Notes: a model not told the origin generated them from the sequence alone. A DNA stretch of 54,439 nt from a virus (IMGVR_UViG_3300025102_000037:1-54439); one strand, 5' to 3'. Counted from the stretch's first letter, positions 16,035 to 44,862 are shown. Numbers and translations are program-made.

Positions 16035-19000
16035 ATGGGAGAAGCGGAACGTAGATTATTCGAAATCGAAGATCTTAAGAATGTTACTAGAGATCTTCGG
16101 AGAAGACATACAACTTTAGACGGCGGCCAGAATAATGGGTTAACGACTGAAGACTATAATCGAAACCGCGCAATGGATGCCCAAGATCGTACGCTTGAAA
16201 CCTTAGAAAGAAACTATGCATACAGTGAGCATACTGCAAACTCTCAAGCGGCTAACGCTAGAGAAGCTGCAACCTATGGGCAAAAACGATTTGGCAAGAT
16301 GAAAGACAATGCTGTAATAGCCAAGTTCCTCGGTCATAGAGATCCTAAAGGTGCTCAGGCTTATAATGATTTTATGTATAAGATTGCTACTCCCGATGCA
16401 ACAGGTAATTTAAAAATTGCAGATCAAAGAACAACTGGTTGGGCCGCTGCTTCTTCCGCCAGTTGGTTCTTATCTAACGCAGAGTTAGAAAGAGGTATTA
16501 CATCTCGAAATGCTAACAATATTAAAATTAATATGAATCTTATGCGAGGCGGTTTACGAGATTATTTTGAAGGCGAAGGTCTTAAAGAATATCGTGGTGA
16601 TGAAGAAATTGAACGAGGAATGGATAGTATCACTGTTGCGGGAGATGGTTGGAATGTAAACCCATTAAACTTTGATGAATCTTTTGATGCTTTTGGATTG
16701 ATGGATTCTCCTGATCTTCAAGCGCTTCGTTATACTGATTCTAATTTTAGTGCCGATACTTATTTAAACGAGATTCAAGAAATTAATCCTGAGTTTGTTT
16801 CTTTAATGAATAAATCCGGCGTTGATATGGATGTTTTAAAACAAACCGGCAACGCTAATGAGTTTTGGTGGAATGTTAACAGAGGCATTGCTATGTTGGG
16901 TGCTGCCAATACTATTGCTCATTGGAAAGAAACAGTTCCAGAATATCAAGAGTGGGCAATGATGGCTAAGGATTTTGTTAGAGATTCTTTAATGAATGAC
17001 CCTGACTTTGCGGGTGAGCTTGTTATTGGCGGGATGTTAGCCTTGTCTACAGGACCTGTTGGAATAGCAGCTCTAACTGGTTTAAAAGTAGCAAAACATG
17101 TTGGCAAGGGTAAGAAGTTTGCTAGAACTTTAGTTAATGCAGCTCGAACCATGAGAAAGGCTGCACAAAAAGCTAACAATGCTTTGCCTCAAAACTGGGG
17201 TCTTAGTATTGGATATGGACTTAGAAAAACTGCTGTAGGTAGATTCTTAAATGTAACTTCAGATGATTTTATTGTAGACGGTATGAAGTTTGGTACCACA
17301 AGAAAATACGGTTCTAAACTTACTGGGTACATGATGGCGGAACTTCCTGCTGGTTTTGTCGAAGAAGGTATTGCTGGAGCATACAATGCTTACAGTATGA
17401 ATCAGACTCAAGTAGGTAGAGATCAAGACCTGTTTAAAGCCTTTATTGATGAGGGTGTTGCAGGGTCTTTGGTTAGAGCTTTTGGTATTAATCCTGCTTT
17501 AAGAAGTATTAACTTTGGTATGAGATACACTGGAGCTAAAGCAGAAAAGTATTTAGTTGATAACTTTGGTAGCATGTTTGATGAAGATGCCGATGGTATG
17601 GGATGGACTCGCAATATTGGTGCATTCTTTCACAGAGCGAAACAAATCACTTCTTTAGATGATACTACTTTCTTATCTAATGAATTAGATGCATTAGATG
17701 TAATGATTGCCTTAGATGAATTAAATATGACTGAGGCAGAAGCGATTGCTGAAATTGAAGGTAGTAATGTACAAGAGCTGGTTAATAAACATCCAGCTTT
17801 GCAAGCAATTGCTACAATGTTAGAGTTTGATAAAGAAGGTAATATTATTGGTAGGGAAACTCTTACTGATGGTAAGAAGGGTGAATTAAAACTTGTTAAG
17901 TTAATTCGTAAAACAAGAGAAGATATTGCCCGGCAAAAATTAGGTATTGATCGTACCGAAGACTTTACCGAACAAGAAGGCGATACCGAAGATGTAAGAA
18001 AGTTTAAAGCTGAGCAAAGAGAAAAGATTGCTAAAGAAGTTAAAGAAGGCACTGTTAGTAAGGATGAATTTAATCTTGCTCTTATGGGGGCCGTCTGGGG
18101 TAAACTGGATAGCGAAGCAAAATCAGCTTCAGAAGCTAGAGCACATAGAGATGCTGCATATTTCCAAATGAGCTTACGATCTTTGGCGTTAGAAAAACAT
18201 CAAGAGATGAAGAAGACTAATCCTAAAGCAACATTCCAAGAAGCCTTTGATGCTGTCTTAGATGATCCCGACTTGTTAATTAAGATGGATCAAGGCGGTG
18301 TTTCTAGAGAAATTGACCAAATTATTGCAGAACAACATCCCGATTTATACGAGACAGCTACAGATGAAAATAGTGGTGAGGAATATTTTGTTCCTAAAAA
18401 AGATACAGAAGATAGAAAGTATAGTGAAGAACTAGCTAAGCATCGCAGAAATGTAGACTTTGATACGCAACTTGCTGCTATTAAAGCACACAGAAAGCGG
18501 CTTGGTATTGTTAAAGATATGCGATTTGCTATTGATGATGCACTGCAAGAAAAAGCAAATACCGCATTCCGCGAGTTAAATAATAAAATTAATCACGAAG
18601 CTAGTTTTAATACTGTTGTTGAATTTATTGAAGCTAACGATGATGGTAGTACGCTTATCATTGACGGAGGCAAAGGTTTAATTGAAGATCTTAATGATGC
18701 TGATATTATTGAAGTAACAGTTAATATGCGTGGTGTTAAAATGCCAATGAGACTTTCTGTGCGTAGACCCAAAGCATTTGAGAGAAAAGGTAGGGGCCAA
18801 ACTCTTAAAACTGTTAAGGTTGAAGTTCAAGCACTAACTGTAGAAAAATATGATAGTGTTAGAGAAATGCTTAACAAGCTTCAAATTGTTACAGGTATTG
18901 ATGAGGTTAAAGCAGCAGAAAAGCTTAGACCTTTAATTAAACAAGCGATTGCAGACAGACTAGGTATTAAAGATGCGTCTGATACTGATCTTGTTGCTAT

Positions 19001-22000
19001 GTTTACAGGCTTGCGTCGAGCTCAAGGAAGAGAATTAACTGAAGCTGAAGCTGATTTAATTAAAGGATTAAAATCGGATTCTAAAAAGAATAGACAAAGA
19101 AAGATTAATTCTAGAACAGCTATGATTGATCTTATCCAAAACGATCTTACAGAAGTAGCTGTAGGCCAGTTAAGTGTACAATATTTTGATGGGATTGGTT
19201 TGGATTCTTCAAATGTTTTAGCACGACTATCTGATCCAGAAGCTAGCAGATTTATTCTTACTATTGAAAATGCAAGAAAAGAAGCACAAGATAATTTGGC
19301 ATTATCCGAAGTCTTAAGCGGTTTAGGTGGTATGTTTAATATTGAAATTGTTCCTGATGCTGATCCTAGAGCGATTGCCGAAAGAGATCTTATTAGACAG
19401 AAAGATGCTGCTAAAGTAAAAGCTATGAACCTTAAGGGCAAAGCATTAACCGCTGAGCTTGATAGATTGGGTCTTAAAAAATCTGGTAACGCAAAAGCTA
19501 AAAAAGAACGTGTGGCTCAAGCGTATGCTAGGCTTTTAGAGGAAGGCAAGCCTATTGATGGTAAACCGGAAGCAGAAGCCAAGCCCGAAGAGCCAGCTAA
19601 AGAGCCAACGGCTGAAGAAACAGAAATTACAGAGATTGAAAGTAGATTAGCTGAAATTGCAAAAATGGAAGCTGAATCAAAAGAAAATAATCAAGAGCTT
19701 GCGGTTCATATTATTGAAGAAAAAGAAAGATTAACTGAAAGGTTAAATGAACTTAAAGAAAAGCAACCTGAAACAGAAGACGAAGGTAGGGGTATTACAT
19801 TTGATCCTGCCGATGCACGAAGACCCGGAGTAGATCAAGAAACTAATGATTTAATGAACAAGTTTCTTCAAGAAGCAACAGATCCTACTTTACCCAGAGG
19901 ATCTATTGAAAGATCAGAAGACAGGCTTGTTGCTCTTAAAAAAATGAAAGACGGTAAAGTTCTGGACGAAAAAGAATCAGATGCTATTGACGCTCTTATT
20001 CGCGAAGAAACGGAAAGATTAGAACGAAGAAAAGCCGAGCAAGTTGAAGAAGAGTCTCCTGTTGAAGTTGAAGTGTTACAAGCTGTAGAGGAGTCTATGG
20101 ACGAGAGTGCTAAAACAACCGACGCAAAAACTGGCGATGCTATTGATCAGGCTAATAAGGATGCTGATAGTGGTGAAATTATTGCTGAAGATGGTACTGT
20201 ATCAGAAGATGGAAAAAAAGCTGCAGCTATTCGTACAGAACGACAGGCAAATACCGATAGGGCAGTTGACTCTCAACGAAAGGCAGAAGATGCAGATACG
20301 AGCAGTCAGCGAGTTAAAGAAAATTACAATACGCGAAGACCAATAATTTTACAAGAGCTTCGTAGTATTGAAGCTGAGAGAGAAAGACTTCGTGAGGAAG
20401 CACGAGAACAAGAAGGCGAAAAATTTGATGACGAAGATTTTGCTACGCGAAAAGATGTTGTTAAGTTAGATCAAAGAGAAGCTAAACTTAAAAAAGAATT
20501 AGCAACTATGGAAGAAGCATTGGGTAATGCATCGCAACGTATAGCAGAAAAAAATAAAGATGCATTGCAAAAGGCACAAGTTAAGGAAGAAGAACTTAAG
20601 GAAAGAGAAAATGCTCTTGCTCCCGATATGGATCAGTCTATTGCTGAAAATGTCTGGGCTCAAATTGAAGTAAGACGTATGAAGAAAGACAAAGCCAACG
20701 ATGCCAGAAGAATTCTTCGTAAACTTAAAGAAAAAAATCCGCAGCCCACTATTGAAGAAATGCATGCAGCTTTGCTAGAGGTAGGTTTTAGTGAGTTTGA
20801 TGCTAAAACAATTGCAAACTTTATGACAGAAGAAGTTAATGGTGCAATTGAAGCTGATAAAAAGTTATCTAAAAAAGAAAAGGAAAGAAAAAAGTTAACT
20901 AATATTCGAGAACGTGGCGATACTACAATTAATCAAGATCACTTTAATACAGCATATGAAGCATTTAAGAAACGATTAAAGACTGAAGCTGAAGGTGAGT
21001 TAACTCAACGAGAGCTGCGTCAAGCAAAAATTATGGCTCTGTATGGTAAAGAGGAATGGGAAAGAGTTCGTGCCGCTAGCAATCCAGATATTGAATTAGA
21101 TATTGCATTAGAAGGTAATGATGCTATTGTTCCCATTAGAGGTAAACCTTTTACTGGTTTAATTAATACTGCCTTTGATCCCGTTGACAGAAACGGTATT
21201 GATATGTCTGACGATGATAAAACAGCCGTTTTAAACGCTAATAATCAACTTGCTTTAATTAAAGCTTTGGAAAGAGCTATTAATAACCTTGCAACTATTG
21301 AAGGCAGAACCACCATTACTAGTGCAGAGTTAGCCAGCTTTGCTTTAGCTGTTGGAAAAAGAAAAGGGTTTGATGTTAATGTAGGTCAACTCTTTGCTAA
21401 AATGAATTGGGCTGTTATCTTTAGAGAATCTATGGTGACAGGTGTTGATGAAGGCGTTGAATACTTTGATCCTGAAAGTTTATTAGATGAGTTAATGATG
21501 CACAAGGCTCGTCTTGAATATAAGACAAGAGGTAGGAAGACTAAGCTTCGAGCATTGGAAGCACAAAAAGAATCTCTTAGTCGCGATGAGCACTTGCAAG
21601 ATGAAGAGTTATTGTTAGAAGAAACTTTAGAAATTGCTGAAGGTGATTCAGATACTCTTAAAGAATTGGGTCGTATTTTATTCAGAAGCGAAACTAGTTC
21701 CTTAAGAGGTCAGTTCTTAGTAGGTATTGATCCTACTAGTAGAAAGTTGGTTAGAACATCTAATAAAGCAGAGTACGAAGCTACAGTCTTAGGTGCTATT
21801 GAAGAACGAATGAAGTTGTATTTTGCACAGCCAAGAAAGTTAGCCAAGATTGTTAACTTCTTAGTAGAAGAAGGATTATTGGATCCCTCATATAGAGATA
21901 ATACATCTCCAGATCAGACGGCACAAAAAATGTATGTGCAAGCTGTAGCTCAATACTTAAGAACATATCCGGGGAATAAGTCTGGTGACTTGTCTTCTTG

Positions 22001-25000
22001 GGGCAATGGCGATATTTCATATTCTTTTGCTGATCAAATTGGTATGGGTATTGTTGATACATTGGCTGGTGAACAAATTGGCACGACTCACGAAATGGTT
22101 GAAGATTACGAAGATGACTATGATTCTAGCGGTGCTAAGATTCATGGTAGTGATCGTATGGATCCAGTTAAGCATCGTGGTGCTCCAATTAAGATTAATA
22201 TGGCTGAACCCATGTTGCCGGGACGTTTAGAAAAACTTAAAGAAGATCATAGATTGATGATGGTTAATCAATTCATTATGGAATTAGATTTAACCGAAGA
22301 GGAAATGGGAATGATCTTTGACTTTACTGATCCTGAAAAAACACCAGATAAGACTGCTGTGGGTGTAGTTGCAGATAGATCTAAGTTTATTGCTGGTGAA
22401 AGACCAATGCCTAGAATTATCTTTGCTGATCCAACCGCTAATCTTCAATCTAGAAAAAAGTTATTAGAAGACATGGCTTTTGCTTTATCAGGACTGCATG
22501 ATGTTCTTTTGTCTAGTATTCACGACTCTGTAAACAATCAAGTGTATGGGGAAAGTATTCCTAGTGGTTTCTTAGATGAAGGAATTGTTTCTGAACTGTA
22601 TGAACGTCATGGTATTGGCTTACCCGGAACTACGGTTGCTATTCCGGGCAGAGAAGATGCCTTAGGACGGGGTGCTGGTGAAGCTGGTGGCTTTGGAGTT
22701 GCTGGTGCTCGCTTTGGTACACTGGCCTATCACGCGGCTCGAAGCTACGGCAAAATGTATCCAGTGTTTAGAGATACTGCTATTGAAGGATTGGCTACAT
22801 GGTCTGCCTTTAGTAAAGCAATCAATGAAGCCACTGATATTGGCATTAAGTCTGCGGAAGAAGCTTTAAGCAAAGATACATACTTTGACGGTAACTTTAA
22901 TGGTATTCACCACAAGATGGCTTTGTCATTTACATTTACAGAAATGGAACTTGATTGGTCATTTCCTACAGATAAATTAAGAGCTGCCATTGCAGACAAG
23001 GGAGATGCTTTAGATAGGTTCTTGTTTGATCATCATGAGATGATGGGTAACAAATTTGTTGGTCGATATAAGAATAGAAACAAAGAAGATTATTATATTA
23101 AGAGTGCTCACGATATCTTGTTAGCTTTATTTAAACGGGCGTATCAAGGAACGGGACCTGAGCAAAAGCTAGCACAAGATACTGTGGAAAAACTGCAAGA
23201 GATTGGCTTCCTTCCAGAAACCTTATCTGTTGCAACATTCGAAGACGGTATTACAATTGATAATCTTTTGGATGGTGAAGAGTATGCTAAGGTTCGAGCA
23301 TTGTTTAAAAAACCAGTGATGACCTATCTTTATGGGGCTAAAAAAGATACTATCAATAAAGAATTTAAAAACTTTTTGGTAGATGAGATGGGATTAAATG
23401 CTACAGAAGCTTCAAAAGTTTCAGATCCTCTTACAAGAATTGCACTTGGCTTTGGCTTAAAGAGTAGACAGATTGCTCTTACTGATCTAACTAATAAAGA
23501 TCGAACAGAAGATCCGTTATTAAAAAATATTTTAGGCGATGACTCTCAGTTAGATTCTATCTTAAAAGCTATGCGTACTCGTATGGATGCTCATGGGTTT
23601 ACCGATGACAATCAAAGAAAACTTAGAGAACATATTAGAAACATGATGGTTGATCCAAGCAACCCCATGGCATTGGAAGATATTACCTTTAACAATCTTG
23701 CATTCCAAATTCAAATGCGTGATTCTATGATTGAAGGATTGATTCAAGGACAACTTGGCTACCAGCCCGGAACACCTGAGTATAACCGGATGAAGTCTAA
23801 GATTAATAAAACAATGCAAGCAGCTTCAGATAAACAAATGGAGTTCTTGGGAAATAGAATTAGAAAGGGTATTGAACGATTATCTGCTCCTGCCTTGACT
23901 AGTGATACTCCTCTTTTAAAATTAACCGATAAAGAATTAGAAACTGTACCTAAGGTTGTTGGTATTCTTTTGACTAAACCTAAATCAGAATGGTCACAGT
24001 TTGAAGAAGTGAAACCATACTTAGATAAAAATGGTAACATTAGTGATGAACCTGTAGGGGAAACTTTAAATCTTAAAAAGAATATGGGTTCCTTTATCCG
24101 TCACATTAGAGTAGAAATTAATGAAGGCATTACAAGAGAAGAAGCTCAAGAAGTTCAAAAGGAAGCAGATGCTGCTATCGAGCCACAAGAGGGTCTATTC
24201 CAAGCAGTAAAAGCTATGGGCGAAGTCGGTAGAAAACTAGACATGGTTGCTCTTGATGAGCTAATGGAGTTTGCTGGTATTTCCGTTGGCGATCCTAATA
24301 TGCGAAATACTCTTGAAAAATACTACAAAAATAATCTTACCTATCGTGGTATTGGTAGAGATGGCTATGCTGGACGCTGGTACGGCACTGAGCACGAGGG
24401 AACTCACCAAGGACCCAAGGGGGCTCAGGATCAAGGGGTAGCCGCTGACGAGCCCCTGCTGGCTATGGGAGCTATGCTTAAGGCTCGTAATGAGGTTAAT
24501 TTTGATAAGGCAGAACAAATGTTTGCTAGGTATTTATTACACCGCACGGCAAATGTTCATACAAATGTAGAACATGTTATTGTTAAAATTGCCAAACAAA
24601 AATTAGAAGGTGAAAAAGATCCTGATCAAATTAGAAGACTAAAAGCAATTATTGCAATTATGACTCCCGATAATGAGTTAACACCAGAACAAAGAGTTGA
24701 ACGCGATATTCAATTCTTTGAAGATTGGCATTCACAATATGAAGTTGCTAAGGCTGTTGAAGATGCAGTTAAAACCCAAGGTGGGTTTGAAAGTTTAACT
24801 GATTCAGAAAGACAGCAGGTTAAATTAAGCTCTATGTTAACACAAGCCACTGCTGCTCATGGTATGGATCCTGAAACTGTAGACACACCAGCTACAACTG
24901 TAGAAGAACTTGAAGATCGTAAGATTAATTTGGGGCAGAATCATGGTATGTTTGCCACTAGGGCAAAAGCTTTTGATACCTCGTTTAGAAACTTAGGTGT

Positions 25001-32775: not shown

Positions 32776-32784
32776 CCACCGCCT

Positions 32785-32806: not shown

Positions 32807-32853
32807 TTGCTTTCCTTAACGCCGGGAGTTATGACCCTGAGCGGAGGTGCACT

Positions 32854-32895: not shown

Positions 32896-32938
32896 ATAGG
32901 CACACTGCAGCCTTCAATGCAGAGATTAGGAGACTGTT

Positions 32939-33537: not shown

Positions 33538-33595
33538 ATTAGCGGTGGTTAGCCGTGAGCTTGCTGGTGCGTACCAGCGATAGGAATACTTTACC

Positions 33596-34093: not shown

Positions 34094-34319
34094 TGCCCTC
34101 ACCGCCTTGTGCTCTCGGAGGGGAGCACTTGGCCTTTCCCCTTGCTTGCAGGGGACACGCGAAAGGAGTTCGCAATGCGATTGCCAGTGATGGCAAACCG
34201 CAGGACTATATGCGTCCGCTGAGGATGACAGTCCTCAACTGGGCAGTCCTCAACCTTCGGGCTGAGGTATCTGGTGTGGCATAGTGAAGCCCTACATTTA
34301 CTGATTGGAATAGATTACC

Positions 34320-34877
34320 ATGAAGAATTTCTTCAAGAAATCGGAATCGACATTCAAGACCCCTGAAAAGGTCATGTCGGTTGTCTCCTTTTCCTTTGAC
34401 CGGAACGAGGGATGGCAAGTAATTGCTACTACCCTCCTTCCCAATGCCAACTTCCGAGCTGAACGCGAAGTTGTTGGTACTCTCGGGTTCGAGGCACAGC
34501 CTGATGCTGTTGTCAAGAATCTGGTCAAGCAGGCCCATGCGTCGAATCGTGAACTCGTTTCGATCATCCCTGCTGGCAAGGACGGCGAGCAAGTACGCCC
34601 AGCTTACTGGGCTACCGTTGCTTGCTCGACAGACGGTTACACTTTGACCGTCGAGGCCCTGATGCCAAAGGCCATCGCCCCGTATATCGAGGGTGTTGGT
34701 GCAGGCTTCAGCGTTGATCTCAAGACCAAGACCTACGGGCGTAAGCTCAAGGCTGAGGTCGGGCAGATCCTTTCCAGCTATGATCCGCAGGACGCTCCTG
34801 CGGGGAGCATCGTGTTCTCACTCTGTGTCGCGAACGGCTCAGGGTACATCTCAATGTACAAAGCCTTGAACGGCTAA
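34320..34877 (+). CDS. Beta-rich hypothetical protein (possible nucleic-acid-binding factor)
   Basis: 185 aa with strong C-ending codon bias and alternating hydrophobic strands; followed by a hairpin. Confidence 0.65.
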   Translation: MKNFFKKSESTFKTPEKVMSVVSFSFDRNEGWQVIATTLLPNANFRAEREVVGTLGFEAQPDAVVKNLVKQAHASNRELVSIIPAGKDGEQVRPAYWATVACSTDGYTLTVEALMPKAIAPYIEGVGAGFSVDLKTKTYGRKLKAEVGQILSSYDPQDAPAGSIVFSLCVANGSGYISMYKALNG

Positions 34878-34902
34878 ACACATTGGGCTTCACACCACAC
34901 CA

Positions 34903-34932
34903 CTCTTACCCTGCTTAGCGGCGGGGTAAGGG
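34903..34932 (+). repeat. Hairpin CTCTTACCCTGC-TTAGCG-GCGGGGTAAGGG (copy 3)
   Basis: 12-bp stem with two G-T pairs and the same TTAGCG loop as copy 2, but a different stem sequence. Confidence 0.8.
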
Positions 34933-35124
34933 CTTTGCCGATCATCTCTTATGATAATATTATGTTATCATATGCCATCATACATCATGGGTAGTGGTTG
35001 TGGTGGTGGTGATGGTGGCGGGCTTGGGTCTATCTTGTGGATAACCCGGGTCTACATCCGTATCCCATGGCTGTCCGTCCATAGGGGTACCTGCTTTTTT
35101 CCACGGACGATAAGGAGATCACCA

Positions 35125-35830: not shown

Positions 35831-37615
35831 ATGCAGACTATGCAAAAGTGGATGACTGAACTCATCTCCCGTGTGGAGTGTGAGTGTGGGATCTCTGTTA
35901 CCACGGAGATCAAGAACATGTTGTGGGATGGTCGGACTAAGGCTTACATCGTCAACGCTCTGCGTAAGACGGTTATGGTCCACTGCTCCGGTAAGTACGC
36001 ACAGGATCCGTCCTATGCTGAACGTGCATTGCTGGCTCTCATGGTTACTAATGGACTGACAAGTCCAAAGGAAAGCCGTGAAGGTCGTGTGCTCTTCAAT
36101 CCCCCTGAGCTGGCTGAACGTCGTGCTCTTGTGTCCAAGAACGTACATGTCAATGTGCCTGATGCCTATCGTGACTCGCTTGCGTGGGCTCAGGCTACCC
36201 CTTACCGGGTGAACACTGACATGCTTGGACTGCTCATGGATGCCAACCTCTTGGAAGAGTGGGAGGCTGAAGAAGCAATTCGTGTTGTCTCTGACAACGA
36301 TGGTATCTTCTACCTTGATTGCTTTATGGATTTCCGTGGTCGTACCTACACGAATCACTATGGTAGCCTGTCCCCGCAGGCGAACCAGAACGTCCGTGCC
36401 TTGGTCGACTTTGGTTACGAGACTCCAGTTGGATTGTGCAGTGATAACTACAACATGCTGATGGGTGTGTTGGAGGAGGAGTACAAGGTCAACTGGAAGA
36501 ACTACACCAAGATCCTGAAGAATGCAAAGTCTCTCCTTGCAGACAAAGCACATGGGAAGAAGACTGCCGGTGTTATCCGTGCAGCCCTGTGCCTGAAGGA
36601 GATTGCTACGACTGGCAAGTCTGCGTACATTGTACAGCAGGATGCTACTTGCTCTGGCTTCCAGCACATGGCTGCGCTTCTGCGTGACCGTGATCTGGGT
36701 AGTCTGGTCAACCTCACGGCTGGCACTCGTAGTGACTTGTACATGGCTGCTACCGACTTCCTGTGTGAACAGGGGACGGCAGTTGGCGTGTTCTTGGCTG
36801 ACCATGACCGAAAGGTTGTGCGTTCTGAACTCGCTAAGCCAACTGTCATGTTGACAGGCTATGCCTCTACCGCTGAGGCACTAGCCCTGTCGTACCTTGG
36901 GTACGATGGCAAGGCAGAGTACACGGACAAGACCGGCGAAACTGTCATTGCGACACGTTTCAAGGATGTGAAGCAGGCACTGAAGCAAGGTGCTGATGTC
37001 AACTTCAATCCTGATTCAATCATGACTCAATGGTTGGATGGTCGGACTGGTGAGAAAGCTATGTATGCTGCACTCACCTTTGCTCGTGAGTTCCAAGAGG
37101 CATTGTTCACGCTCTGCCCCTCGGTCAAGGAACTCATTACTTCAATCAAGGGTGCTGCTTTATCGCACTTCAACAAGACTGGGGCAACTCTATCTTGGAC
37201 TACACCATTGGGATTGTTTATCTTTCTTTCCCCTTGGAAAGTCACTGAAGATACGCACACTGTCTCTTTCCAATCTGGAGGGATTCGCAAATCCATGAAC
37301 GTCTTGTCATTGCGACCTGACTCCATGGGTGGTGCAGCAGGAGCTTTACCCAACTTGATTCACTCCTTGGATGCTTGCCTTGTTCACATGGTAAACCTTG
37401 CCCGCATCGGGCTGGGTATGCCATGGGCTGACATCCATGACTCCTTCGGCTCCACTGTTGGAGATGTCAAGCGTACCGTTGAACTGGTGAATGACGCTTT
37501 CGTTGAGGTTCACACCAAGTTTGAGATCAATGATGATGTGCTTCGATTGCACAATCGTTCGATCTTGAGCAAGGGTGATCTCTGTCTCTCAGAGTTGGAA
37601 CAAATTATCTTCTGA
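35831..37615 (+). CDS. Compact T7-family single-subunit RNA polymerase (594 aa, N-terminal domain largely absent)
   Basis: MDFRGRTY (aa 167), QQDATCSGFQH (motif A), SDLY, RSELAKPTVMLTGYA (variant motif B), WTTPLG, PNLIHSLDA, IHDSFG (motif C), C-terminal IIF. RBS GAAAGGA. Confidence 0.92.
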   Translation: MQTMQKWMTELISRVECECGISVTTEIKNMLWDGRTKAYIVNALRKTVMVHCSGKYAQDPSYAERALLALMVTNGLTSPKESREGRVLFNPPELAERRALVSKNVHVNVPDAYRDSLAWAQATPYRVNTDMLGLLMDANLLEEWEAEEAIRVVSDNDGIFYLDCFMDFRGRTYTNHYGSLSPQANQNVRALVDFGYETPVGLCSDNYNMLMGVLEEEYKVNWKNYTKILKNAKSLLADKAHGKKTAGVIRAALCLKEIATTGKSAYIVQQDATCSGFQHMAALLRDRDLGSLVNLTAGTRSDLYMAATDFLCEQGTAVGVFLADHDRKVVRSELAKPTVMLTGYASTAEALALSYLGYDGKAEYTDKTGETVIATRFKDVKQALKQGADVNFNPDSIMTQWLDGRTGEKAMYAALTFAREFQEALFTLCPSVKELITSIKGAALSHFNKTGATLSWTTPLGLFIFLSPWKVTEDTHTVSFQSGGIRKSMNVLSLRPDSMGGAAGALPNLIHSLDACLVHMVNLARIGLGMPWADIHDSFGSTVGDVKRTVELVNDAFVEVHTKFEINDDVLRLHNRSILSKGDLCLSELEQIIF

Positions 37616-37633
37616 TAATCCTCTCTGACCAAC

Positions 37634-37666
37634 GATGTATGGATGTGAAAGCATCCATGCATCTTT
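37634..37666 (+). terminator. Hairpin terminator after the compact RNAP
   Basis: GATGTATGGATGT-GAAA-GCATCCATGCATC followed by TTT and an AT-rich tract. Confidence 0.65.
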
Positions 37667-38676: not shown

Positions 38677-38829
38677 AACTATTTGATAACATTATCACCC
38701 GGACTGAAATGTTCGCGTTAACATGTGTGCTGTTATCAACGCCTTACCCCACAGGTGTAAAGAGGTGGGTAGCAGGGGTGCGATTCTGCTAAACCAACGC
38801 ACACTTTTTCAACAAGGTAATTGTGATAG

Positions 38830-38885
38830 AACACTAGTAACTTGAGTGACCAACACTTGAGTTGCTAGTGTTTTATTTTATTTTT
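38830..38885 (+). terminator. Rho-independent terminator
   Basis: 19-bp stem AACACTAGTAACTTGAGTG / CACTTGAGTTGCTAGTGTT followed by a long T-rich run. Confidence 0.8.
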
Positions 38886-40993: not shown

Positions 40994-41039
40994 AAAATAA
41001 TAAAAATTGTTTGACACATAAGACAAGGACGTATATAAT
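40991..41039 (+). promoter_or_regulatory. Consensus sigma70-type promoter with UP element
   Basis: TTGACA (41011-41016), 17 bp spacer, TATAAT (41034-41039), preceded by an A-rich tract. Confidence 0.85.
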
Positions 41040-41043
41040 GTGC

Positions 41044-41181
41044 ATGTTGCCTGATGATAAAGATGATCTTGAAGATGATGTTCATTGCTATGATTGTGAT
41101 GATATAGATGATAATAATATTATCTTTCAAGAAGAAGTTGACAGACTAGACTATAACCCTTATAATATAGAGGACAAATAA
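41044..41181 (+). CDS. 45-aa hyper-acidic peptide, not in the ORF track
   Basis: MLPDDKDDLEDDVHCYDCDDIDDNNIIFQEEVDRLDYNPYNIEDK, 18/45 D+E. Its stop overlaps the next ATG; there is no room for an RBS after the promoter. Confidence 0.45.
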   Translation: MLPDDKDDLEDDVHCYDCDDIDDNNIIFQEEVDRLDYNPYNIEDK

Positions 41182-41357
41182 TGAACTATATTGATCTTGC
41201 TATTCCAGAAGATGATGACATTCGTGATGAATGTATGTCAGTCATTGAAGACTGGATGATGAGCGAAGAAGACATGGAAAGATTTGCCAAGTATCTTTTC
41301 CCGTATCTTAAACCATACTTGGACAAACTGAAAGATGAGGAAACTAATCGTGCATGA
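41181..41357 (+). CDS. 58-aa acidic hypothetical protein, not in the ORF track
   Basis: RBS GAGGA; MNYIDLAIPEDDDIRDECMSVIEDWMMSEEDMERFAKYLFPYLKPYLDKLKDEETNRA. Confidence 0.6.
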   Translation: MNYIDLAIPEDDDIRDECMSVIEDWMMSEEDMERFAKYLFPYLKPYLDKLKDEETNRA

Positions 41358-42336
41358 GATGTATGAAAATGATTCTGCGATGTATGCCGGAAGCTCTGCT
41401 TGGCATGGGCTTGGGACTGTTGTTGCTGATGCTCCTAGCCCCTATGATGCACTCCGACTTGCTGGGTTGGATTGGCGAGTCATTCCTTCGCACAGCATTT
41501 GCTGTAACTACATGCGTGACGGTGTTGAGCGGTGCAGTGTTACAACTGACAAGGTAGCCAATGTCCGTGAGGACACAGGCGAGGTGCTTGGTTGGGTTGG
41601 TAACAACTACAAGCGTATTCAAAACATTGACGTAGCCGAGCTGGCTTACGCCGTGGCTGGTAATGAGACTAAGGTAGAGACTGCTGGCAGTCTTCGCAAT
41701 GGTGCTCGTACTTACTTCTTGTTGAAGTTTAACGAGTTCTCTACGCAGCATAGTGATGATGTAACCAATGAGTATCTGTTGCTTGCCAACGGACACGATG
41801 GCTTGATGGCATTCAATGCTATCCCAACTGCTATCCGTGTTGTCTGTGCTAACACCTTGGCTATTGCTATGGCTCAAGCAAATGCATACCGCATTGCCCA
41901 CAAGGGTGATATGGATCAGAAGCTTGACGATCTTCGTGTAGCTATTGCTTCTGCTAAACAAGATAGCCGTGTCTTTGAAGACAAGGTTCGATACCTTGCT
42001 AATCAAGGCATGACTCGTCACACACTGAAAGATTACTACAATCTGATGTACAACAAACACTTTAATCAAGTCGATGATGATTCATCTGACCGTGATTGGA
42101 AGAAGAAAATTGAAACCACTTTGAAGTGGGAGAATAGATTTGAGATTGAATCTAACACTGCAGGTAATAACCTGTGGAATGCATTTAACTCTATCACTTA
42201 CTTCGTCGAGCACACCATGCCAACGCGTGGTCGTACCGATGCACAACGTCGAGAGAATCGACTACATACAAACATGTTCGGAACCTCTGGTTCTTTGAAG
42301 ACTAAGATCTTTGAGAACACTTTGGAACTGATCTAA
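41350..42336 (+). CDS. DUF932 / LGT_TIGR03299-type phage-plasmid protein
   Basis: AWHGLG, AGLDWRV, YKRIQN, ETAGSLRNG, YLLLANGHDG, PTAIRVVCANTL, LWNAFNSITYFVEH. Probable GTG start at 41350. Confidence 0.88.
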   Translation: MHEMYENDSAMYAGSSAWHGLGTVVADAPSPYDALRLAGLDWRVIPSHSICCNYMRDGVERCSVTTDKVANVREDTGEVLGWVGNNYKRIQNIDVAELAYAVAGNETKVETAGSLRNGARTYFLLKFNEFSTQHSDDVTNEYLLLANGHDGLMAFNAIPTAIRVVCANTLAIAMAQANAYRIAHKGDMDQKLDDLRVAIASAKQDSRVFEDKVRYLANQGMTRHTLKDYYNLMYNKHFNQVDDDSSDRDWKKKIETTLKWENRFEIESNTAGNNLWNAFNSITYFVEHTMPTRGRTDAQRRENRLHTNMFGTSGSLKTKIFENTLELI

Positions 42337-42370: not shown

Positions 42371-42405
42371 GAATACTACTCAGGAAACTGGGTAGTATTC
42401 TTTTT
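42371..42405 (+). terminator. Rho-independent terminator directly upstream of the canonical RNAP gene
   Basis: GAATACTACTCAG-GAAA-CTGGGTAGTATTC-TTTTT. Confidence 0.85.
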
Positions 42406-42423
42406 CCAACATAAGGAGTATGC

Positions 42424-44862
42424 ATGCTTTGGGATAAACTGTCTTATGAAGAACAGCAAAGAAGAATTGATATCGAATCTACTATGGAAGAGGAGACGTT
42501 GTTATCTTCTATCCAAAAGTATTGGGATGATTATGACAGGGCACCCGATGAGGGTATCCCTGAACAAAAACTATTAGATGATTTTATTGATGAGCTAGCT
42601 CCCCAGTATCAGGAGTGGATTGATAAGGTATCTGATAGTCCTAAGTGTCCGCAGTGGGTCTACCCATTATTTGCATTAGGTGCTCACAAGATGGCAGACC
42701 TAACGCTTAGATCTGTGATGCGACTGTGGCTAAACAGTAATGCTTTCAAAGAAGACAGCGATGGTATTGTACACCCACCACTTGCACAGCATGTGGTTAG
42801 AATGATATCTAAAGATGCAGTAAATATTATTGCTTATCAGCTAGCTAAAGAAGAACACAGAGATGACTGGCAAAGACAGTCTAAGTTTATTAAAAACTGG
42901 TCAGAAAAAAGATGTATTGCTTTTGCTACTAAGATGGCAAAGATTCCAGACATGACGCTCAAACAGAAGGATGACTTTGGTCATCACATGTTGCGTATTG
43001 CAGAAGCTTCTGGCGTAGTGCAGACTACTAAACGCAGCAAGCGCAGGGGTAGAGGGTGGACTCATGCATTGCATGTAGAGTTTAGCCCTGCTATCCTAGC
43101 CTATCTTAATGAACGACACAAGCTAATGGAAACATCTATGCTTGTATATCGTCCAATGATTATACCCCCTGTTGAGCACAACTTAGATAGTTCCGGTGGG
43201 TATCTTCACCACTGGATTCGTAAAGAAGTTGTACATAGATATGTCTCTGAGTATGCAGAAGATAAAGTTGTACACCAAAAACACTCAGAGCCGTCACAGT
43301 TTGTGCTTGATGGTGTCAATGCTATGATGCAAACGGAATGGACAGTCAATGACAGAGTGTTAGAAGTTATGGAAAACATGTTTAAGTCAAACAATCAATT
43401 AGCTAATCTACCTGCATATAACTTTGATGAGTTCTCATATAATGAACCGTACCCTGAAGATGGGCCGAAAGATGTGCAGGCTAAATGGTGTCAGCGTAGA
43501 GAAGAGATGTACAGTAATTGGTTTAAACAAGAGCAGGCTAGAGCTAGAATGTTAGTTCGCTTGACTCTTGCTAAGAAGATGCAGAAGTATCAATTCTTTT
43601 ACATGCCAATGACGCTCGACTTCCGGGGGCGAGCGTACACTACATGTGAGTTACTGTCTCATCAAAGCTCTGACTTTGATAAAGCATTGATTCATTTTGC
43701 TGAGCCTGTAAAACAAACAGATCGTGGATTGTATTGGGTTAAAGTTCATGCTGCTAATATGTTTGATCAAGATAAACTTTCTTTTGATGAGAGAGTAGAG
43801 TGGGTAGATGATAACATGGATATGCTTCAAGCAATTAATGATGATCCCTACTCTAATAAAGAGTGGGTATCAGATAAAAAGAAAAAGAATCCATCATTCC
43901 AAAGGCTTGCTGCTGTGTTTGAAGTATGCCGTACAGATGGGTTGACTCAGTTAGCACCGCAGATGGATGGCGCATGCAATGGTTCGCAGCACTGGGCTGC
44001 TATCATGGGTGATAAGGTAATTGGTGCATTAACTAATGTGTTACCTGAAGACAAACCACAAGATCTGTACCAATTTATTGCAGATAAAACTACTGACTAT
44101 TGTCGAAAAAATACTAAGAATATTTCTTGGTGTGAAGACTTCCTTGAGTATTGGCCTGAAGGTATTGATCGTGCTGTAACCAAACGACCTACTATGTGTG
44201 ACGCATATGGGCTAACATTTTATGGTATTCAAAAGTATATTAAGATTGAAGGTCATGTTGACTGGGTGCCCAAGGAAAAACAAGGTGGAGCTATTGTAGA
44301 GTTAGCCCGAGCAATCCAGCATGGGCTAGGTGAGGCATTGCAGGAGCCCAATCGTGGCAAGGAATGGCTCAAGGAATGTGCTGAGATATGTGGTAATGCT
44401 GGCTTTCACCTAGAGTACACTGTCCCTAGTGGCTTTAAAGTAGTACATGCATACTACCAGATTAAAAAGAGAAGATCATTAGCGTCACTCTTTAACCACA
44501 AAGAACTTATATTTTGGAATGTTTCTAAAGAAGTGAATAGAGATAAAGCAATGCTTGGTATACCACCAAACTACATACACTCACTAGATGCAAGCCATAT
44601 GTTCTGCACTGTAAAACAAATGATTAATGCGGGTATTGAAAGATTCAGTATGATCCATGATTCGTATGGTTGTCCCGCACCATATGTGGATATGATGAAT
44701 CAATTTATTAGAGATGAGTTTTTAAAAATGCACAAGGAGAATCAACTTGAAGTATTCAAACGATGCGTCGAAGCAACCACGGGGGTCACACTCCCTGATG
44801 TCCCAGACAGAAGAGACATGGAACTCGAGCGAGTCTTGGACTCCAAGTACTTCTTTTCATGA
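42424..44862 (+). CDS. T7-like DNA-directed RNA polymerase (canonical, 812 aa)
   Basis: PMIIPP, LDFRGRAY, QMDGACNGSQH (A), QDLY, RAVTKRPTMCDAYG (B), PPNYIHSLDASH, MIHDSYG (C), C-terminal YFFS. Confidence 0.97.
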   Translation: MLWDKLSYEEQQRRIDIESTMEEETLLSSIQKYWDDYDRAPDEGIPEQKLLDDFIDELAPQYQEWIDKVSDSPKCPQWVYPLFALGAHKMADLTLRSVMRLWLNSNAFKEDSDGIVHPPLAQHVVRMISKDAVNIIAYQLAKEEHRDDWQRQSKFIKNWSEKRCIAFATKMAKIPDMTLKQKDDFGHHMLRIAEASGVVQTTKRSKRRGRGWTHALHVEFSPAILAYLNERHKLMETSMLVYRPMIIPPVEHNLDSSGGYLHHWIRKEVVHRYVSEYAEDKVVHQKHSEPSQFVLDGVNAMMQTEWTVNDRVLEVMENMFKSNNQLANLPAYNFDEFSYNEPYPEDGPKDVQAKWCQRREEMYSNWFKQEQARARMLVRLTLAKKMQKYQFFYMPMTLDFRGRAYTTCELLSHQSSDFDKALIHFAEPVKQTDRGLYWVKVHAANMFDQDKLSFDERVEWVDDNMDMLQAINDDPYSNKEWVSDKKKKNPSFQRLAAVFEVCRTDGLTQLAPQMDGACNGSQHWAAIMGDKVIGALTNVLPEDKPQDLYQFIADKTTDYCRKNTKNISWCEDFLEYWPEGIDRAVTKRPTMCDAYGLTFYGIQKYIKIEGHVDWVPKEKQGGAIVELARAIQHGLGEALQEPNRGKEWLKECAEICGNAGFHLEYTVPSGFKVVHAYYQIKKRRSLASLFNHKELIFWNVSKEVNRDKAMLGIPPNYIHSLDASHMFCTVKQMINAGIERFSMIHDSYGCPAPYVDMMNQFIRDEFLKMHKENQLEVFKRCVEATTGVTLPDVPDRRDMELERVLDSKYFFS

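What the first reader, a model, noticed from the sequence alone, without database searches (positions are those of the whole stretch)
16035..44862. Candidate three-RNA-polymerase transcription cascade in a T7-like genome
Seen: three separate + strand genes carry T7-family RNAP motifs. They are the giant virion protein (16035-32018), a compact 594-aa enzyme in the GC-rich early region (35831-37615) and a canonical 812-aa enzyme heading the replication genes (42424-44862). Established: T7-like phages normally encode one RNAP; N4-like phages use an injected virion RNAP, a two-subunit RNAPII and then host RNAP. Here the replication and morphogenesis genes are T7-type, not N4-type. Inference: a relay in which the injected enzyme transcribes the first-entering region, the compact RNAP the next block and the canonical RNAP the replication/late genes. 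I know of no description of this combination but cannot check the literature.
Basis: partly seen in the sequence, partly recalled or inferred. Interest (0 to 1): 0.96.

Follow-up and report, generated by a model that had tools for sequence, protein, structure and literature searches.

The report
Marine T7-like phage, three RNA polymerases
An uncultured marine T7-like phage encodes two separate T7-family RNA polymerases and also appears to carry a third, N4-like polymerase module inside a giant 5,327-residue protein that sits where injected proteins are normally encoded.

Summary
The 594-aa and 812-aa genes are clear T7-family RNA polymerases (Pfam RNA_pol, E 1.6e-29 and 2.1e-80). They lie together, at the same spacing, in three other viral contigs, so this is not an assembly chimera.

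The giant protein matches no curated family directly. Its family profile does match N4 virion RNAP and T7 RNAP profiles:
- Probability is 87-88% and E about 3e-6, with the catalytic Asp, Lys and Tyr in register.
- Other slices of the giant and a reversed query give E of 0.027 or worse.
- The confidently modelled fingers match T7 RNAP (Z 8.5) and mitochondrial RNAP (Z 8.1). These are the only chains at Z 8 or more among 48,161, in two models.
- The palm is not modelled, and its two other motifs appear in swapped order.

The gene follows 221-aa and 1,744-aa genes, like T7 gp14/15/16 and the N4 ejection operon.

The proposed relay is only partly supported. A perfect sigma-70 promoter, conserved in all 4 records covering it, lies about 1.3 kb upstream of the 812-aa gene, so host RNA polymerase probably takes part. 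I found no phage promoters and no expression data. Five literature searches found no description of this combination.

The parts
10123..10788 (+). 221-aa protein, first of three consecutive genes of rising size after TerL. Candidate gp14-like ejection protein by position only.
   Evidence: ORF. No PHROG or Pfam family. 63% identical to its G002 counterpart.
10788..16022 (+). 1744-aa protein, second of the triplet. Candidate gp15-like periplasmic tunnel protein by position only.
   Evidence: ORF. No family. Only 25% identical to the G002 counterpart while replication genes are 88-98% identical.
16035..32018 (+). Giant 5327-aa protein, third of the triplet. Candidate injected protein with an internal single-subunit RNAP-like module.
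   Evidence: ORF. Homologues of 3786-5311 aa at 41-88% identity. Conserved along aa 1300-5100.
22392..24524 (+). RNAP-like core of the giant protein (aa 2120-2830).
   Evidence: hhalign against N4 vRNAP and T7 RNAP profiles, E about 3e-6, with controls. Fingers match T7 RNAP at Z 8.5, mitochondrial RNAP at Z 8.1 and N4 mini-vRNAP at Z 5.7-6.0. Protein Atlas gives RNA_pol and N4 vRNAP clusters as nearest, score 0.88.
22884..22910 (+). Motif A-like FDGNFNGIH (aa 2284-2292); D2285 aligns to N4 D559 and T7 D537.
   Evidence: Found in 19 of 21 family sequences scanned; the 2 without it are fragments.
23295..23339 (+). Motif B-like RALFKKPVMTYLYGA (aa 2421-2435); R2421/K2425/Y2433 align to N4 R666/K670/Y678 and T7 R627/K631/Y639.
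   Evidence: Found in 18 of 21 sequences; the 3 without it are fragments.
22515..22529 (+). SIHDS (aa 2161-2165), resembling T7 motif C but lying upstream of motif A.
   Evidence: Aligns to T7 807-817 at E 0.014 and to N4 motif C at E 0.037; neither is significant.
24354..24395 (+). GRDGYAGRWYGTEH (aa 2774-2787), resembling the T/DxxGR block but lying downstream of motif B. Alternatively, D2776 at a predicted beta-hairpin turn is the motif C aspartate.
   Evidence: Aligns to T7 424-441 at E 0.018; not significant.
32029..32478 (+). 149-aa hydrophobic protein directly after the giant gene; far more conserved than the giant.
   Evidence: phrog_38283, function unknown. 91-99% identical in 5 loci where the giant is 31-86% identical.
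32467..34946 (.). Block with about twofold contig depth: candidate direct terminal repeat, or a block shared by co-occurring strains. It starts the GC-rich region.
   Evidence: depth 74-92 against 33-45 in the flanks, in runs X1 and X2, which may be the source sample. Unitig breaks and alternative joints are also present.
32861..32888 (+). Conserved hairpin element, copy 1 (CTGGGCTACC - loop - GGGGTAGC).
   Evidence: The stem sequence is invariant in 6 copies from 4 records, with no compensatory changes.
33432..33459 (+). Conserved hairpin element, copy 2.
35831..37615 (+). Compact 594-aa T7-family RNAP in the GC-rich block.
   Evidence: PF00940 at E 1.6e-29. Lacks most of the equivalent of T7 residues 1-215 (19 of them aligned) and part of the thumb. 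Relatives of 585-617 aa down to 34% identity. GC3 0.56.
37631..37666 (+). Hairpin followed by TTT, directly after the compact RNAP gene.
   Evidence: I2: 15-nt arms, 87% complementary.
38829..38873 (+). 20-bp-stem terminator-like hairpin with a T run, at the end of a 494-bp non-coding stretch (38390-38883).
41011..41039 (+). Perfect sigma-70 consensus promoter-like site (12 of 12).
   Evidence: An 11/12 site with a 16-nt spacer lies in the same position in G003; none in G002.
41138..41166 (+). Perfect sigma-70 consensus promoter-like site (12 of 12), conserved.
   Evidence: 12/12 in the window, G002, G003 and G001.
41335..42336 (+). DUF932 protein between the sigma-70 sites and the 812-aa RNAP gene.
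   Evidence: PF06067 at E 4e-38; phrog_1221.
42371..42400 (+). Intrinsic-terminator-like hairpin (13 pairs, then TTTTT), 24 nt before the 812-aa RNAP start codon.
42424..44862 (+). Full-length 812-aa T7-type RNAP heading the replication genes.
   Evidence: PF00940 at E 2.1e-80. phrog_414 end to end. Best cultured relative is phage LUZ100 at 28% identity over 99% of the protein.

Best explanation
The window is a circularly permuted fragment of an uncultured marine podophage genome of about 67 kb. Its replication and morphogenesis genes are T7-type.

The phage carries three modules of the single-subunit (T7/N4/mitochondrial) RNA polymerase family:
1. A module at about aa 2120-2830 of a 5327-aa protein. 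Its gene is the third of a small/medium/giant triplet (221, 1744, 5327 aa) after the terminase gene. That arrangement matches T7 gp14/15/16 and the N4 ejection operon, where the third protein is the virion RNAP.
2. A compact 594-aa enzyme that lacks most of the N-terminal promoter-binding domain. It is comparable in size and reduction to N4 RNAPII and lies in a GC-rich block directly downstream of the giant gene.
3. A full-length 812-aa T7-type enzyme in front of the replication genes.

Most likely mechanism (inferred, not shown):
- The giant protein is packaged and ejected, and its polymerase module makes the first transcripts from the GC-rich block, which includes the compact RNAP gene.
- The compact enzyme and/or host sigma-70 RNA polymerase, using the conserved consensus promoter at 41138-41166, express the next block and the 812-aa RNAP.
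- The 812-aa enzyme transcribes replication and virion genes as in T7.

The programme would therefore involve up to four polymerases, host included, rather than a closed three-enzyme relay.

What is shown: the two free RNAPs, their conserved linkage, the family-level similarity of the giant's fingers and motifs A/B to T7 and N4 RNAPs, and the promoter-like and terminator-like sites.

What is inferred: packaging and injection, catalytic activity of the giant's module, the order of action, and which DNA end enters first.
For: Free RNAPs.

Conserved linkage: both genes lie about 7 kb apart in G002 and G003, and G001 holds the compact gene plus the start of the second at its contig end. The window and G002 share 88-98% identity for most early and replication genes.

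Giant module:
- hhalign Prob 88% / E 3.2e-6 against an 11-phage N4-like vRNAP profile over 288 columns (N4 559-873). Prob 87% / E 3.8e-6 against a 7-member T7-like profile.
- Controls at E 0.027-0.51.
- G002's giant gives a sub-threshold PF00940 hit (15.7 bits, E 1.1e-4 per genome) on the same motif A-B stretch.
- 1 of 5 family members hits PF00940 (E 2.9e-4) and 1 of 5 hits PF21894 N4_RNAP_helical (E 0.045). These are the two best families in that scan.
- The nearest Protein Atlas clusters are RNA_pol and N4 vRNAP families, at score 0.88 (a lead only).
- VIA-align over 48,161 chains, on two independent AF2 models: T7 RNAP Z 8.5 (rmsd 2.7-2.8, 92-96 aligned, T7 568-689), human mitochondrial RNAP Z 8.1, N4 mini-vRNAP Z 6.0 and 5.7. 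Only those first two chains reach Z>=8.

Position: the triplet 221/1744/5327 aa follows TerL. The analogy of the Schitovirus ejection operon to T7 gp14/15/16, with vRNAP as the third protein, is stated in passages of PMC13434306 that I read.

Compact enzyme: most of the equivalent of T7 residues 1-215 is absent. The compact length is kept at 585-617 aa down to 34% identity.

Transcription units: hairpins and terminators at 37631-37666, 38829-38873 and 42371-42400; sigma-70 sites at 41011 and 41138.

Three compositional strata that follow the proposed classes: GC3 0.56 (compact RNAP), 0.36 (812-aa RNAP), 0.24 (giant).
Against: - The window's giant protein matches no curated RNAP model at any listed threshold. 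No match to PF21894 or PF21867 was found in 3 records, but the control rang nowhere, so that test says little.
- A 5-row profile found no PDB relative. It also drew only 16 proteins at E<=0.001 from 1.84 billion; only two exceed 1,100 aa and all align as giant-family pieces. No known RNAP was therefore reached by HMMER.
- Both AF2 models are poor (pLDDT 54.9 and 53.0, pTM 0.28 and 0.33), and both palm segments are below pLDDT 50. Foldseek found nothing at E<=0.001.
- By the tool's own note, Z of 8.5 is within the range that unmatched models can reach.
- The motif C-like and T/DxxGR-like blocks lie in swapped order, so an intact active site is not demonstrated.
- No repeated promoter motif was found for any phage enzyme.
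- The conserved hairpin has a 4-6-nt loop and no covariation. It fits a terminator or processing site as well as an N4-type promoter.
- The consensus sigma-70 promoters show that host RNAP is probably used.
- Virion packaging is untested.
Confidence: 0.55

Rival explanations
1. T7-style programme with a non-transcribing giant protein. Host RNA polymerase starts from the consensus sigma-70 promoters, makes the 812-aa RNAP, and that enzyme does the rest. The RNAP-like module in the giant ejection protein would be a catalytically dead relic or would serve DNA or RNA binding or DNA translocation during ejection. The compact RNAP would be an accessory enzyme.
For: - Perfect, conserved sigma-70 sites upstream of DUF932 and the 812-aa gene. 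This mirrors T7's strong early host promoters, a point recalled from knowledge of T7.
- No curated RNAP model hits the giant.
- The palm motifs are out of canonical order and unmodelled.
Against: - The residues that bind metal and NTP in T7 and N4 (motif A Asp; motif B Arg, Lys, Tyr) are conserved in family members that are otherwise 20-50% identical, in a protein that diverges faster than any other in the genome except its 1,744-aa neighbour. That argues for selection on catalysis.
- The sigma-70 sites lie about 8.6 kb from the start of the GC-rich block, and a terminator stands between them and the 812-aa gene.
- This rival gives no role to a conserved compact RNAP family.
Confidence: 0.25
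2. The compact 594-aa enzyme is not a stage in a transcription relay. It would be a specialised polymerase, for example one that primes replication or transcribes only a few genes or the terminal block. Gene expression would run on the giant's module and/or host RNAP plus the 812-aa enzyme.
For: - It lacks most of the N-terminal promoter-binding region, so it probably needs cofactors or unusual templates, as N4 RNAPII does (passages of PMC13434306).
- No promoter family that could define its regulon was found.
Against: - Its placement and terminator-flanked unit resemble the early-encoded N4 RNAPII.
- All four catalytic motifs are canonical.
- It is 86-94% conserved across four relatives.
Confidence: 0.12
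3. Assembly artefact: the GC-rich block with the compact RNAP was wrongly joined to a T7-like genome.
For: The GC content jumps from about 0.38 to 0.50 at about 32.5 kb. Logan unitigs break at 32,429/32,467 and 34,946, and alternative joints exist there.
Against: - The same order, giant - 149-aa gene - GC-rich block - compact RNAP - 812-aa RNAP, is present in the independent 67-kb contig G002.
- Both RNAP genes are linked in G001 and G003.
- The giant/149-aa/downstream junction recurs in L038, L040, L041, L043 and L044.
- The GC-rich block recurs in G002.
Confidence: 0.02

Closest known systems
Bacteriophage N4 (Schitoviridae) virion RNA polymerase gp50 and its three-polymerase programme
   Same: - A giant protein encoded as the third gene of a small/medium/giant operon.
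- A central module with motif A (DGxxNG) and motif B (R...K.......YG) in register with N4 D559/R666/K670/Y678.
- An N-terminally reduced second RNAP encoded near a conserved hairpin-bearing early region.
- Likely use of host RNAP at some stage.
   Different: - The protein is 5327 aa, against 3500 aa in N4.
- The N4-specific Pfam families gave no match, though the control did not ring either. phrog_2206 does not match.
- Palm motif order differs.
- The second RNAP is one 594-aa chain, not two subunits (gp15 269 aa + gp16 404 aa).
- A third, full-length T7-type RNAP is present.
- Replication and morphogenesis genes are T7-type, and all genes are on one strand.
T7-like phages (Autographiviridae): gene 1 RNAP and the gp14/gp15/gp16 ejectosome
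   Same: - An 812-aa RNAP matching phrog_414 end to end.
- Gp2.5-like SSB, gp4-like primase/helicase, DNA polymerase and gp6-like exonuclease.
- Portal-scaffold-capsid-tail order in G002.
- Consensus sigma-70 promoters upstream of the RNAP gene.
- A three-protein set of rising size in one block.
   Different: - The genome is about 67 kb rather than about 40 kb.
- The triplet lies after TerL.
- The third protein is about four times the size of gp16 (size recalled) and carries a polymerase-like module.
- There is a second, compact RNAP.
- The 812-aa enzyme is at most 28% identical to any cultured phage RNAP.
N4 RNAPII (gp15 + gp16 heterodimer)
   Same: A minimal T7-family polymerase without the N-terminal promoter-binding domain. 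Its total size is similar (673 aa against 594 aa), and it is encoded in the early part of the genome (passages of PMC13434306).
   Different: It is a single polypeptide here. Similarity to gp15 and gp16 is very weak (E 0.006 and 7e-4), no closer than to T7 RNAP (E 1.8e-12). No gp1/gp2-type cofactor was identified.
Virion RNAPs fused to structural proteins in crAss-like phages and Thermus phage P23-45
   Same: The concept of a giant injected structural protein carrying the polymerase for the earliest genes, followed by a second phage-encoded RNAP. I saw these only as abstracts in the listing.
   Different: According to those abstracts, the enzymes are two-barrel polymerases of the cellular type. 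The module here is of the T7/Pol I-like type.

Membership tests
Single-subunit (T7-type) RNA polymerase, Pfam RNA_pol PF00940 | Score above the curated cut-off (22 bits) - 594-aa and 812-aa proteins | tested here: met
   103.4 and 271.2 bits.
Single-subunit (T7-type) RNA polymerase, Pfam RNA_pol PF00940 | Score above the curated cut-off - giant protein | tested here: not met
   No match at E<=10 in the window and none at E<=0.01 in the protein halves. G002's homologue scores 15.7 bits, below 22. 1 of 5 family members reaches E 2.9e-4.
Single-subunit (T7-type) RNA polymerase | Motif A aspartate and motif B Arg/Lys/Tyr in register - giant protein | tested here: met
   hhalign against T7 and N4 profiles at E about 3e-6 with controls. 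The motifs are conserved in 19 and 18 of 21 family sequences; the rest are fragments.
Single-subunit (T7-type) RNA polymerase | Motif C aspartate and T/DxxGR in canonical positions - giant protein | tested here: inconclusive
   The look-alike blocks are in swapped order. Crossed pairings score E 0.014-0.037 and canonical pairings E 0.16-0.74; none is significant. The palm is below pLDDT 50 in both models.
Single-subunit (T7-type) RNA polymerase | Polymerase fold (fingers, palm, thumb) - giant protein | tested here: inconclusive
   Only the fingers match: T7 RNAP Z 8.5, mitochondrial RNAP Z 8.1, N4 mini-vRNAP Z 5.7-6.0. Foldseek finds nothing. Palm and thumb are not modelled.
N4-like virion RNA polymerase (Schitoviridae hallmark) | Match to N4 vRNAP-specific models (phrog_2206; PF21894; PF21867) | tested here: inconclusive
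   phrog_2206 gives no hit in the giant. PF21894 and PF21867 give no hit in 3 records, but their control rang nowhere. PF21894 reaches E 0.045 in 1 of 5 family members. PF21624 (plug) was not searched.
N4-like virion RNA polymerase (Schitoviridae hallmark) | Third gene of a three-gene ejection operon | tested here: met
   Met by gene order and size only: 221, 1744 and 5327 aa, contiguous on the + strand. There is no sequence similarity to N4 or T7 counterparts.
N4-like virion RNA polymerase (Schitoviridae hallmark) | Packaged in the virion and injected; rifampicin-resistant early transcription | not testable with these tools
   Uncultured phage. No RNA run listed.
N4-like virion RNA polymerase (Schitoviridae hallmark) | Hairpin promoters (5-7-bp stem, 3-nt loop; feature recalled) upstream of early genes | tested here: inconclusive
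   A conserved hairpin of fixed sequence occurs twice in the early block and in relatives. Its stem is 10-12 pairs and its loop 4-6 nt, and there is no way here to tell promoter from terminator.
Schitoviridae (N4-like phages) as a genome type | Two-subunit RNAPII and N4-type replication and morphogenesis genes | tested here: not met
   The second RNAP is a single chain. Replication genes hit T7-type PHROGs (phrog_112 Gp2.5-like, phrog_239 primase/helicase, phrog_107 exonuclease). The gene order is T7-type.
Autographiviridae-like (T7-like) genome type | Own single-subunit RNAP, genes on one strand, T7-type replication and morphogenesis modules | tested here: met
   Formal taxonomy was not tested; RNAP identity to cultured members is at most 28%.

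The most novel reading that the evidence does not exclude
This lineage is an evolutionary bridge between T7-like and N4-like podophages. It would be a T7-type genome whose gp16-position ejection protein has become, or has remained, a 5,300-residue injected RNA polymerase. The palm of that polymerase would be rearranged: motif C ahead of motif A, and the T/DxxGR block after motif B. Such an order has not been described for single-subunit RNAPs.

The phage would then run a four-polymerase programme: the injected enzyme, then the compact RNAPII-like enzyme, then host sigma-70 RNAP, then the T7-type enzyme. The three compositional strata (GC3 0.56, 0.36, 0.24) would mark the temporal classes.
Probability: 0.2. 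Interest if true: 0.95.

Novelty: new variant of a known kind. Interest (0 to 1): 0.8.

Why it matters
N4's injected polymerase has been treated as the hallmark of one family, the Schitoviridae. T7's single RNAP has been the hallmark of another.

Recent structural work places the N4/DEV vRNAP in the position of T7 gp16 in the ejection operon (passages of PMC13434306). A T7-type genome whose gp16-position protein carries an N4-like polymerase module would add three things:
- Direct genomic evidence on how virion polymerases and ejection proteins are related.
- A third solution to early transcription among podophages.
- Two very divergent, compact or embedded single-subunit RNAPs with possible new promoter specificities, which are of interest as orthogonal transcription tools.

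If the swapped palm motifs are real, it would also be the first rearranged member of this polymerase family.

Tried and rejected
Searches that found no RNAP relative for the giant protein:
- Direct family searches: Pfam and PHROGs on both halves; PF00940 and phrog_2206 on the record's six frames; phmmer against PDB sequences. None gave an RNAP hit.
- BLASTP of the two free RNAPs against the giant and the 1744-aa protein gave only chance-level hits.
- A 5-row profile against PDB gave nothing.
- The same profile against 1.84 billion representatives gave 16 proteins, all giant-family pieces by their aligned ranges, and reached no known RNAP. That library carries no names.
- hhalign of that shallow profile against single sequences was weak: N4 E 0.056, the 812-aa RNAP E 0.26. 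It became informative only with deeper profiles on both sides.
- PF21894 and PF21867 gave no match in G000, G002 or G004, but the control rang nowhere.

Structure:
- Two AF2 jobs gave poor models.
- Foldseek against PDB found no match at E<=0.001.

Related loci:
- A single-protein query for the core found none in viral contigs.
- An alignment query found only G002 and G004.
- The metagenome scan found 6 loci. Their records are not held, so the free RNAPs could not be looked for there. The loci end at or just after the 149-aa gene.

Promoters:
- 13-mers with at most 1 mismatch among intergenic stretches of the window and G002 gave only ribosome-binding-site-like pairs.
- 16-mers with at least 12 of 16 matches across 16 G002 intergenic stretches did no better than shuffles: maximum 3 against 2-3.
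- A first, over-permissive clustering script produced only noise.

Other checks:
- The hairpin element showed no compensatory changes.
- Sequencing runs: no RNA holder was listed. All four runs laid were contigs, so no molecule ends could be seen (table 6: none).
- Rfam found only the two tRNAs.

Literature:
- Five full-text searches found no description of a T7-type genome with a vRNAP-like giant protein plus two free single-subunit RNAPs. This covers only the held open-access library.
- I read passages of PMC10747016 (StenR_269, where a vRNAP is assumed from size and composition only), PMC3861242 and PMC13434306. All other papers were seen only as listings or abstracts.
- Supplements were not consulted.

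Rejected ideas:
- Chimeric assembly (see rival 3).
- Membership in Schitoviridae (see the membership test).
- 'DALGR' at aa 2208-2212 as the T/DxxGR motif: the Arg is not conserved in P0004, P0005 or P0006.

Full report
**What the window is.** The window is a whole IMG/VR record of 54,439 bp, classed as linear. All long ORFs are on the + strand. In order, it holds:
- a tail protein (phrog_457, open at the 5' end) and two unassigned proteins;
- TerL (phrog_38), then proteins of 221, 1744 and 5327 aa, then a 149-aa protein;
- a GC-rich block of about 6 kb containing a 594-aa RNAP;
- a block of small genes and a DUF932 gene;
- an 812-aa RNAP, a metallophosphoesterase, a Gp2.5-like SSB, RusA, two tRNAs, a gp4-like primase/helicase, a DNA polymerase, a dNMP kinase and a gp6-like exonuclease.

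No portal or capsid gene is present, so the CheckV figure of 100% shown is misleading. The related 67,272-bp contig G002 has the same order. Between the exonuclease and the tail protein it adds portal (phrog_449), scaffold (phrog_1052), major head protein (phrog_267) and a tail protein (phrog_446), and its two ends both fall inside the 1744-aa homologue. The real genome is therefore about 67 kb, and the assemblies are circular permutations of it.

**The two free polymerases.** Both are members of the T7 family by curated thresholds and show all four canonical motifs.
- The 812-aa protein matches phrog_414 end to end. It is at most 28% identical to any RNAP in 50,697 phage records.
- The 594-aa protein finds relatives in 898 records, none covering 80% of it.
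- Against T7 RNAP it lacks most of the equivalent of residues 1-215 and part of the thumb.
- This compact form is not a truncation artefact. Relatives of 585-617 aa exist down to 34% identity.
- The two enzymes are only 22% identical to each other.

**Not a chimera.** Both genes lie about 7 kb apart in G002 and G003. G001 holds the compact gene and the start of the second at its contig end. The junction giant - 149-aa gene - conserved downstream sequence recurs in L038, L040, L041, L043, L044 and G002. The GC-rich block recurs in G002.

**The giant protein.** Direct searches are blank. Reading the sequence shows FDGNFNGIH at aa 2284 and RALFKKPVMTYLYG at aa 2421. The protein family is small:
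- Five relatives of 41-88% identity were found in 5.8 billion clusters.
- 16 clusters were found at E<=0.001 in 1.84 billion representatives.
- Two viral contigs and six metagenome loci hold a homologue.

With a 19-row alignment (A2), I compared the family with an 11-phage alignment of N4-like vRNAP cores and a 7-member alignment of T7-like RNAPs, built from named phage records.
- hhalign gives Prob 88%, E 3.2e-6 over 288 columns against N4 (N4 559-873).
- It gives Prob 87%, E 3.8e-6 against T7 (T7 536-652).
- The motif A Asp and the motif B Arg, Lys and Tyr are in register.
- The known pair N4 versus T7 gives Prob 95.5%, E 1.4e-8 in the same set-up.

I also cut the giant into eight overlapping 1200-aa slices from the six-row alignment.
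- The slices at 1801-3000 and 2401-3600 are the only ones with notable scores (E 2.5e-5 to 7.8e-4). The first holds motifs A and B; the second holds motif B and the fingers.
- The five slices without motif B score E 0.027-0.5.
- The reversed query scores E 0.37-0.51.

Three weaker, independent pointers agree:
- G002's giant gives a sub-threshold PF00940 hit on this same stretch.
- 1 of 5 family members hits PF00940 (E 2.9e-4) and 1 hits N4_RNAP_helical (E 0.045). These are the top two families of that scan.
- The nearest Protein Atlas clusters are RNA_pol and N4 vRNAP families, at 0.88, which the tool calls a lead only.

**Structure.** Two AF2 jobs, on aa 1750-2949 and aa 2120-2830, gave poor overall models: pLDDT 54.9 and 53.0, pTM 0.28 and 0.33. 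The helical region around motif B is at pLDDT about 80 and both palm segments are below 50. Foldseek found nothing. The exhaustive VIA-align search of 48,161 chains gave the following in both models:

| Chain | Z | Detail |
|---|---|---|
| T7 RNAP | 8.5 | rmsd 2.7-2.8; 92-96 residues; T7 568-689, the O-helix region |
| Human mitochondrial RNAP | 8.1 | |
| N4 mini-vRNAP | 6.0 and 5.7 | ranks 3 and 9 |

T7 RNAP and mitochondrial RNAP were the only chains at Z>=8. Family A DNA polymerases appear at Z 5.1-5.3. The tool warns that Z 7-8 can occur without kinship. What gives weight here is that the top hits are all of one family and are aligned on the motif predicted from sequence. I therefore take the fingers and motifs A/B as established at the family level, and the palm as open.

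**An oddity in the palm.**
- A block like T7 motif C (LLSSIHDS) lies 120 residues upstream of motif A.
- A block like the T/DxxGR region (GRDGYAGRWYGTEHEGTHQG, compared with T7 GRVYAVSMFNPQG) lies 350 residues downstream of motif B.
- This order holds in every family sequence that covers two or more motifs. Of the 21 sequences scanned, several are near-duplicates and 7 are fragments.
- Segment-restricted hhalign scores the crossed pairings better than the canonical ones, by best match for each giant segment: E 0.014-0.037 against 0.16-0.74 (gC versus N4 T/DxxGR 0.14 is the weaker cross). None of these is significant.
- Alternatively, D2776 sits at the turn of a predicted beta-hairpin, at about the distance from motif B expected from N4 D951, and could be the motif C aspartate.
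- A simple circular permutation would give the order C-T-A-B, not C-A-B-T.

This stays unexplained.

**Context of the giant gene.**
- The contiguous triplet 221/1744/5327 aa parallels T7 gp14/15/16. It also parallels the Schitovirus ejection operon, whose third member is the vRNAP (passages of PMC13434306). There is no sequence similarity to those proteins.
- Between the window and G002, most early and replication genes are 88-98% identical. The 1744-aa protein is 25% identical, the giant 39%, and the tail proteins 58-70%.
- The 149-aa gene next to the giant stays 91-99% identical even where the giant is 31%.

**Transcription signals.**
- The GC-rich block (GC 0.46-0.53; GC3 of the compact RNAP 0.56, against 0.36 for the 812-aa RNAP and 0.24 for the giant) begins right after the 149-aa gene.
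- It carries two copies of a hairpin with an invariant stem (CTGGGCTACC...GGGGTAGC). The hairpin also occurs in G002, L038 (twice) and L043. No compensatory changes were seen, so it looks like a protein-recognised element, but promoter, terminator and processing site cannot be told apart.
- The compact RNAP gene is followed by a hairpin plus TTT.
- A 494-bp non-coding stretch ends in a 20-bp-stem terminator at 38829-38873.
- Two perfect sigma-70 consensus sites lie at 41011 and 41138. The second is 12/12 in the window, G002, G003 and G001.
- They precede a 58-aa ORF and the DUF932 gene. A terminator-like hairpin at 42371-42400 follows, 24 nt before the 812-aa RNAP start.
- No repeated phage-type promoter was found.

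**Genome ends.** Logan contigs of two marine metagenome runs that may be the source sample show depth 74-92 over about 32,467-34,946, against 33-45 on both sides.
- This fits a 2.5-kb direct terminal repeat, which would make the GC-rich block the left end.
- However, unitigs break at those borders and alternative joints exist. Co-occurring strains sharing this block are an equally good explanation.
- No read ends can be seen in contigs.

**Reading.** The data support a T7-type phage that has an N4-like polymerase module inside its largest ejection-position protein and two free polymerases, one N-terminally reduced like N4 RNAPII and one canonical. A temporal cascade is plausible, and the composition strata and terminator-bounded units fit it. 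The conserved consensus sigma-70 promoter argues that host RNA polymerase is part of the programme, most simply for the DUF932/812-aa RNAP unit, as in T7. Packaging, activity, order of action and entry polarity are inferences.

**Novelty.** Five full-text searches found no description of this combination. The nearest item, phage StenR_269, has a vRNAP assumed from size and composition only. The search covers open-access papers and bioRxiv only, and supplements were closed. I rate the finding as a new variant of a known kind: the N4-type injected-polymerase strategy in a T7-type genome, with an extra polymerase. It could rate higher if the rearranged palm is real.

Noticed in passing
window 32029-32478: The 149-aa hydrophobic protein after the giant gene (phrog_38283, function unknown) is 91-99% identical in 5 loci whose giant proteins are only 31-86% identical. 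The 18 nt after its stop codon (GGGTCACGAATTTGTAAG) are kept, with at most one change, in all 7 sequences compared; in one they lie 10 nt further on.
   Followed up: partly
window 32467-34946: About twofold contig depth in two marine metagenome runs: candidate 2.5-kb direct terminal repeat, or a block shared by co-occurring strains. Alternative joints 32496>33429 and 32499>32897 show strain variants lacking early ORFs.
   Followed up: partly
window 16035-32018, 35831-37615, 42424-44862: Three compositional strata. GC3 is 0.24 (giant), 0.56 (compact RNAP) and 0.36 (812-aa RNAP); the DNA polymerase is at 0.38. The GC-rich block is also present in G002.
   Followed up: partly
window 10788-32018 versus G002: The 1744-aa and giant proteins are the fastest-diverging genes (25% and 39% identity), while most replication and early genes are 88-98% identical. 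The ejection-position proteins are hypervariable.
   Followed up: partly
window 47823-47895 and 47898-47973: Two adjacent tRNA genes, Leu(TAA) and Arg(TCT), between the RusA-like and primase/helicase genes.
   Followed up: no
window 38390-38883: A 494-bp stretch without an ORF of 45 aa or more, ending in a 20-bp-stem hairpin plus T run. No Rfam family at gathering score.
   Followed up: no
window 33526-33548, 34995-35021, 37725-37757: GGT-rich repeats (TGGTGGTGGTGATGGTGG-like) in three places in the GC-rich block (families D3/D4). Logan contigs break at two of them.
   Followed up: no
window 32939-33424: A 161-aa protein with a sub-threshold Destabilase (lysozyme-like) match, E 9.8e-5 and 23 bits against a cut-off of 26.2. 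It lies inside the twofold-depth block, and tblastn finds no counterpart in G002.
   Followed up: no
window 45398-45426: A further sigma-70-like site (11/12), conserved at 11/12 in G002 and 12/12 in G003. It lies inside a 111-aa ORF just upstream of the metallophosphoesterase gene.
   Followed up: no
whole record: CheckV completeness is given as 100%, yet the record lacks the portal, scaffold, capsid and first tail genes that its relative G002 has. The estimate is misled by the 16-kb gene.
   Followed up: yes
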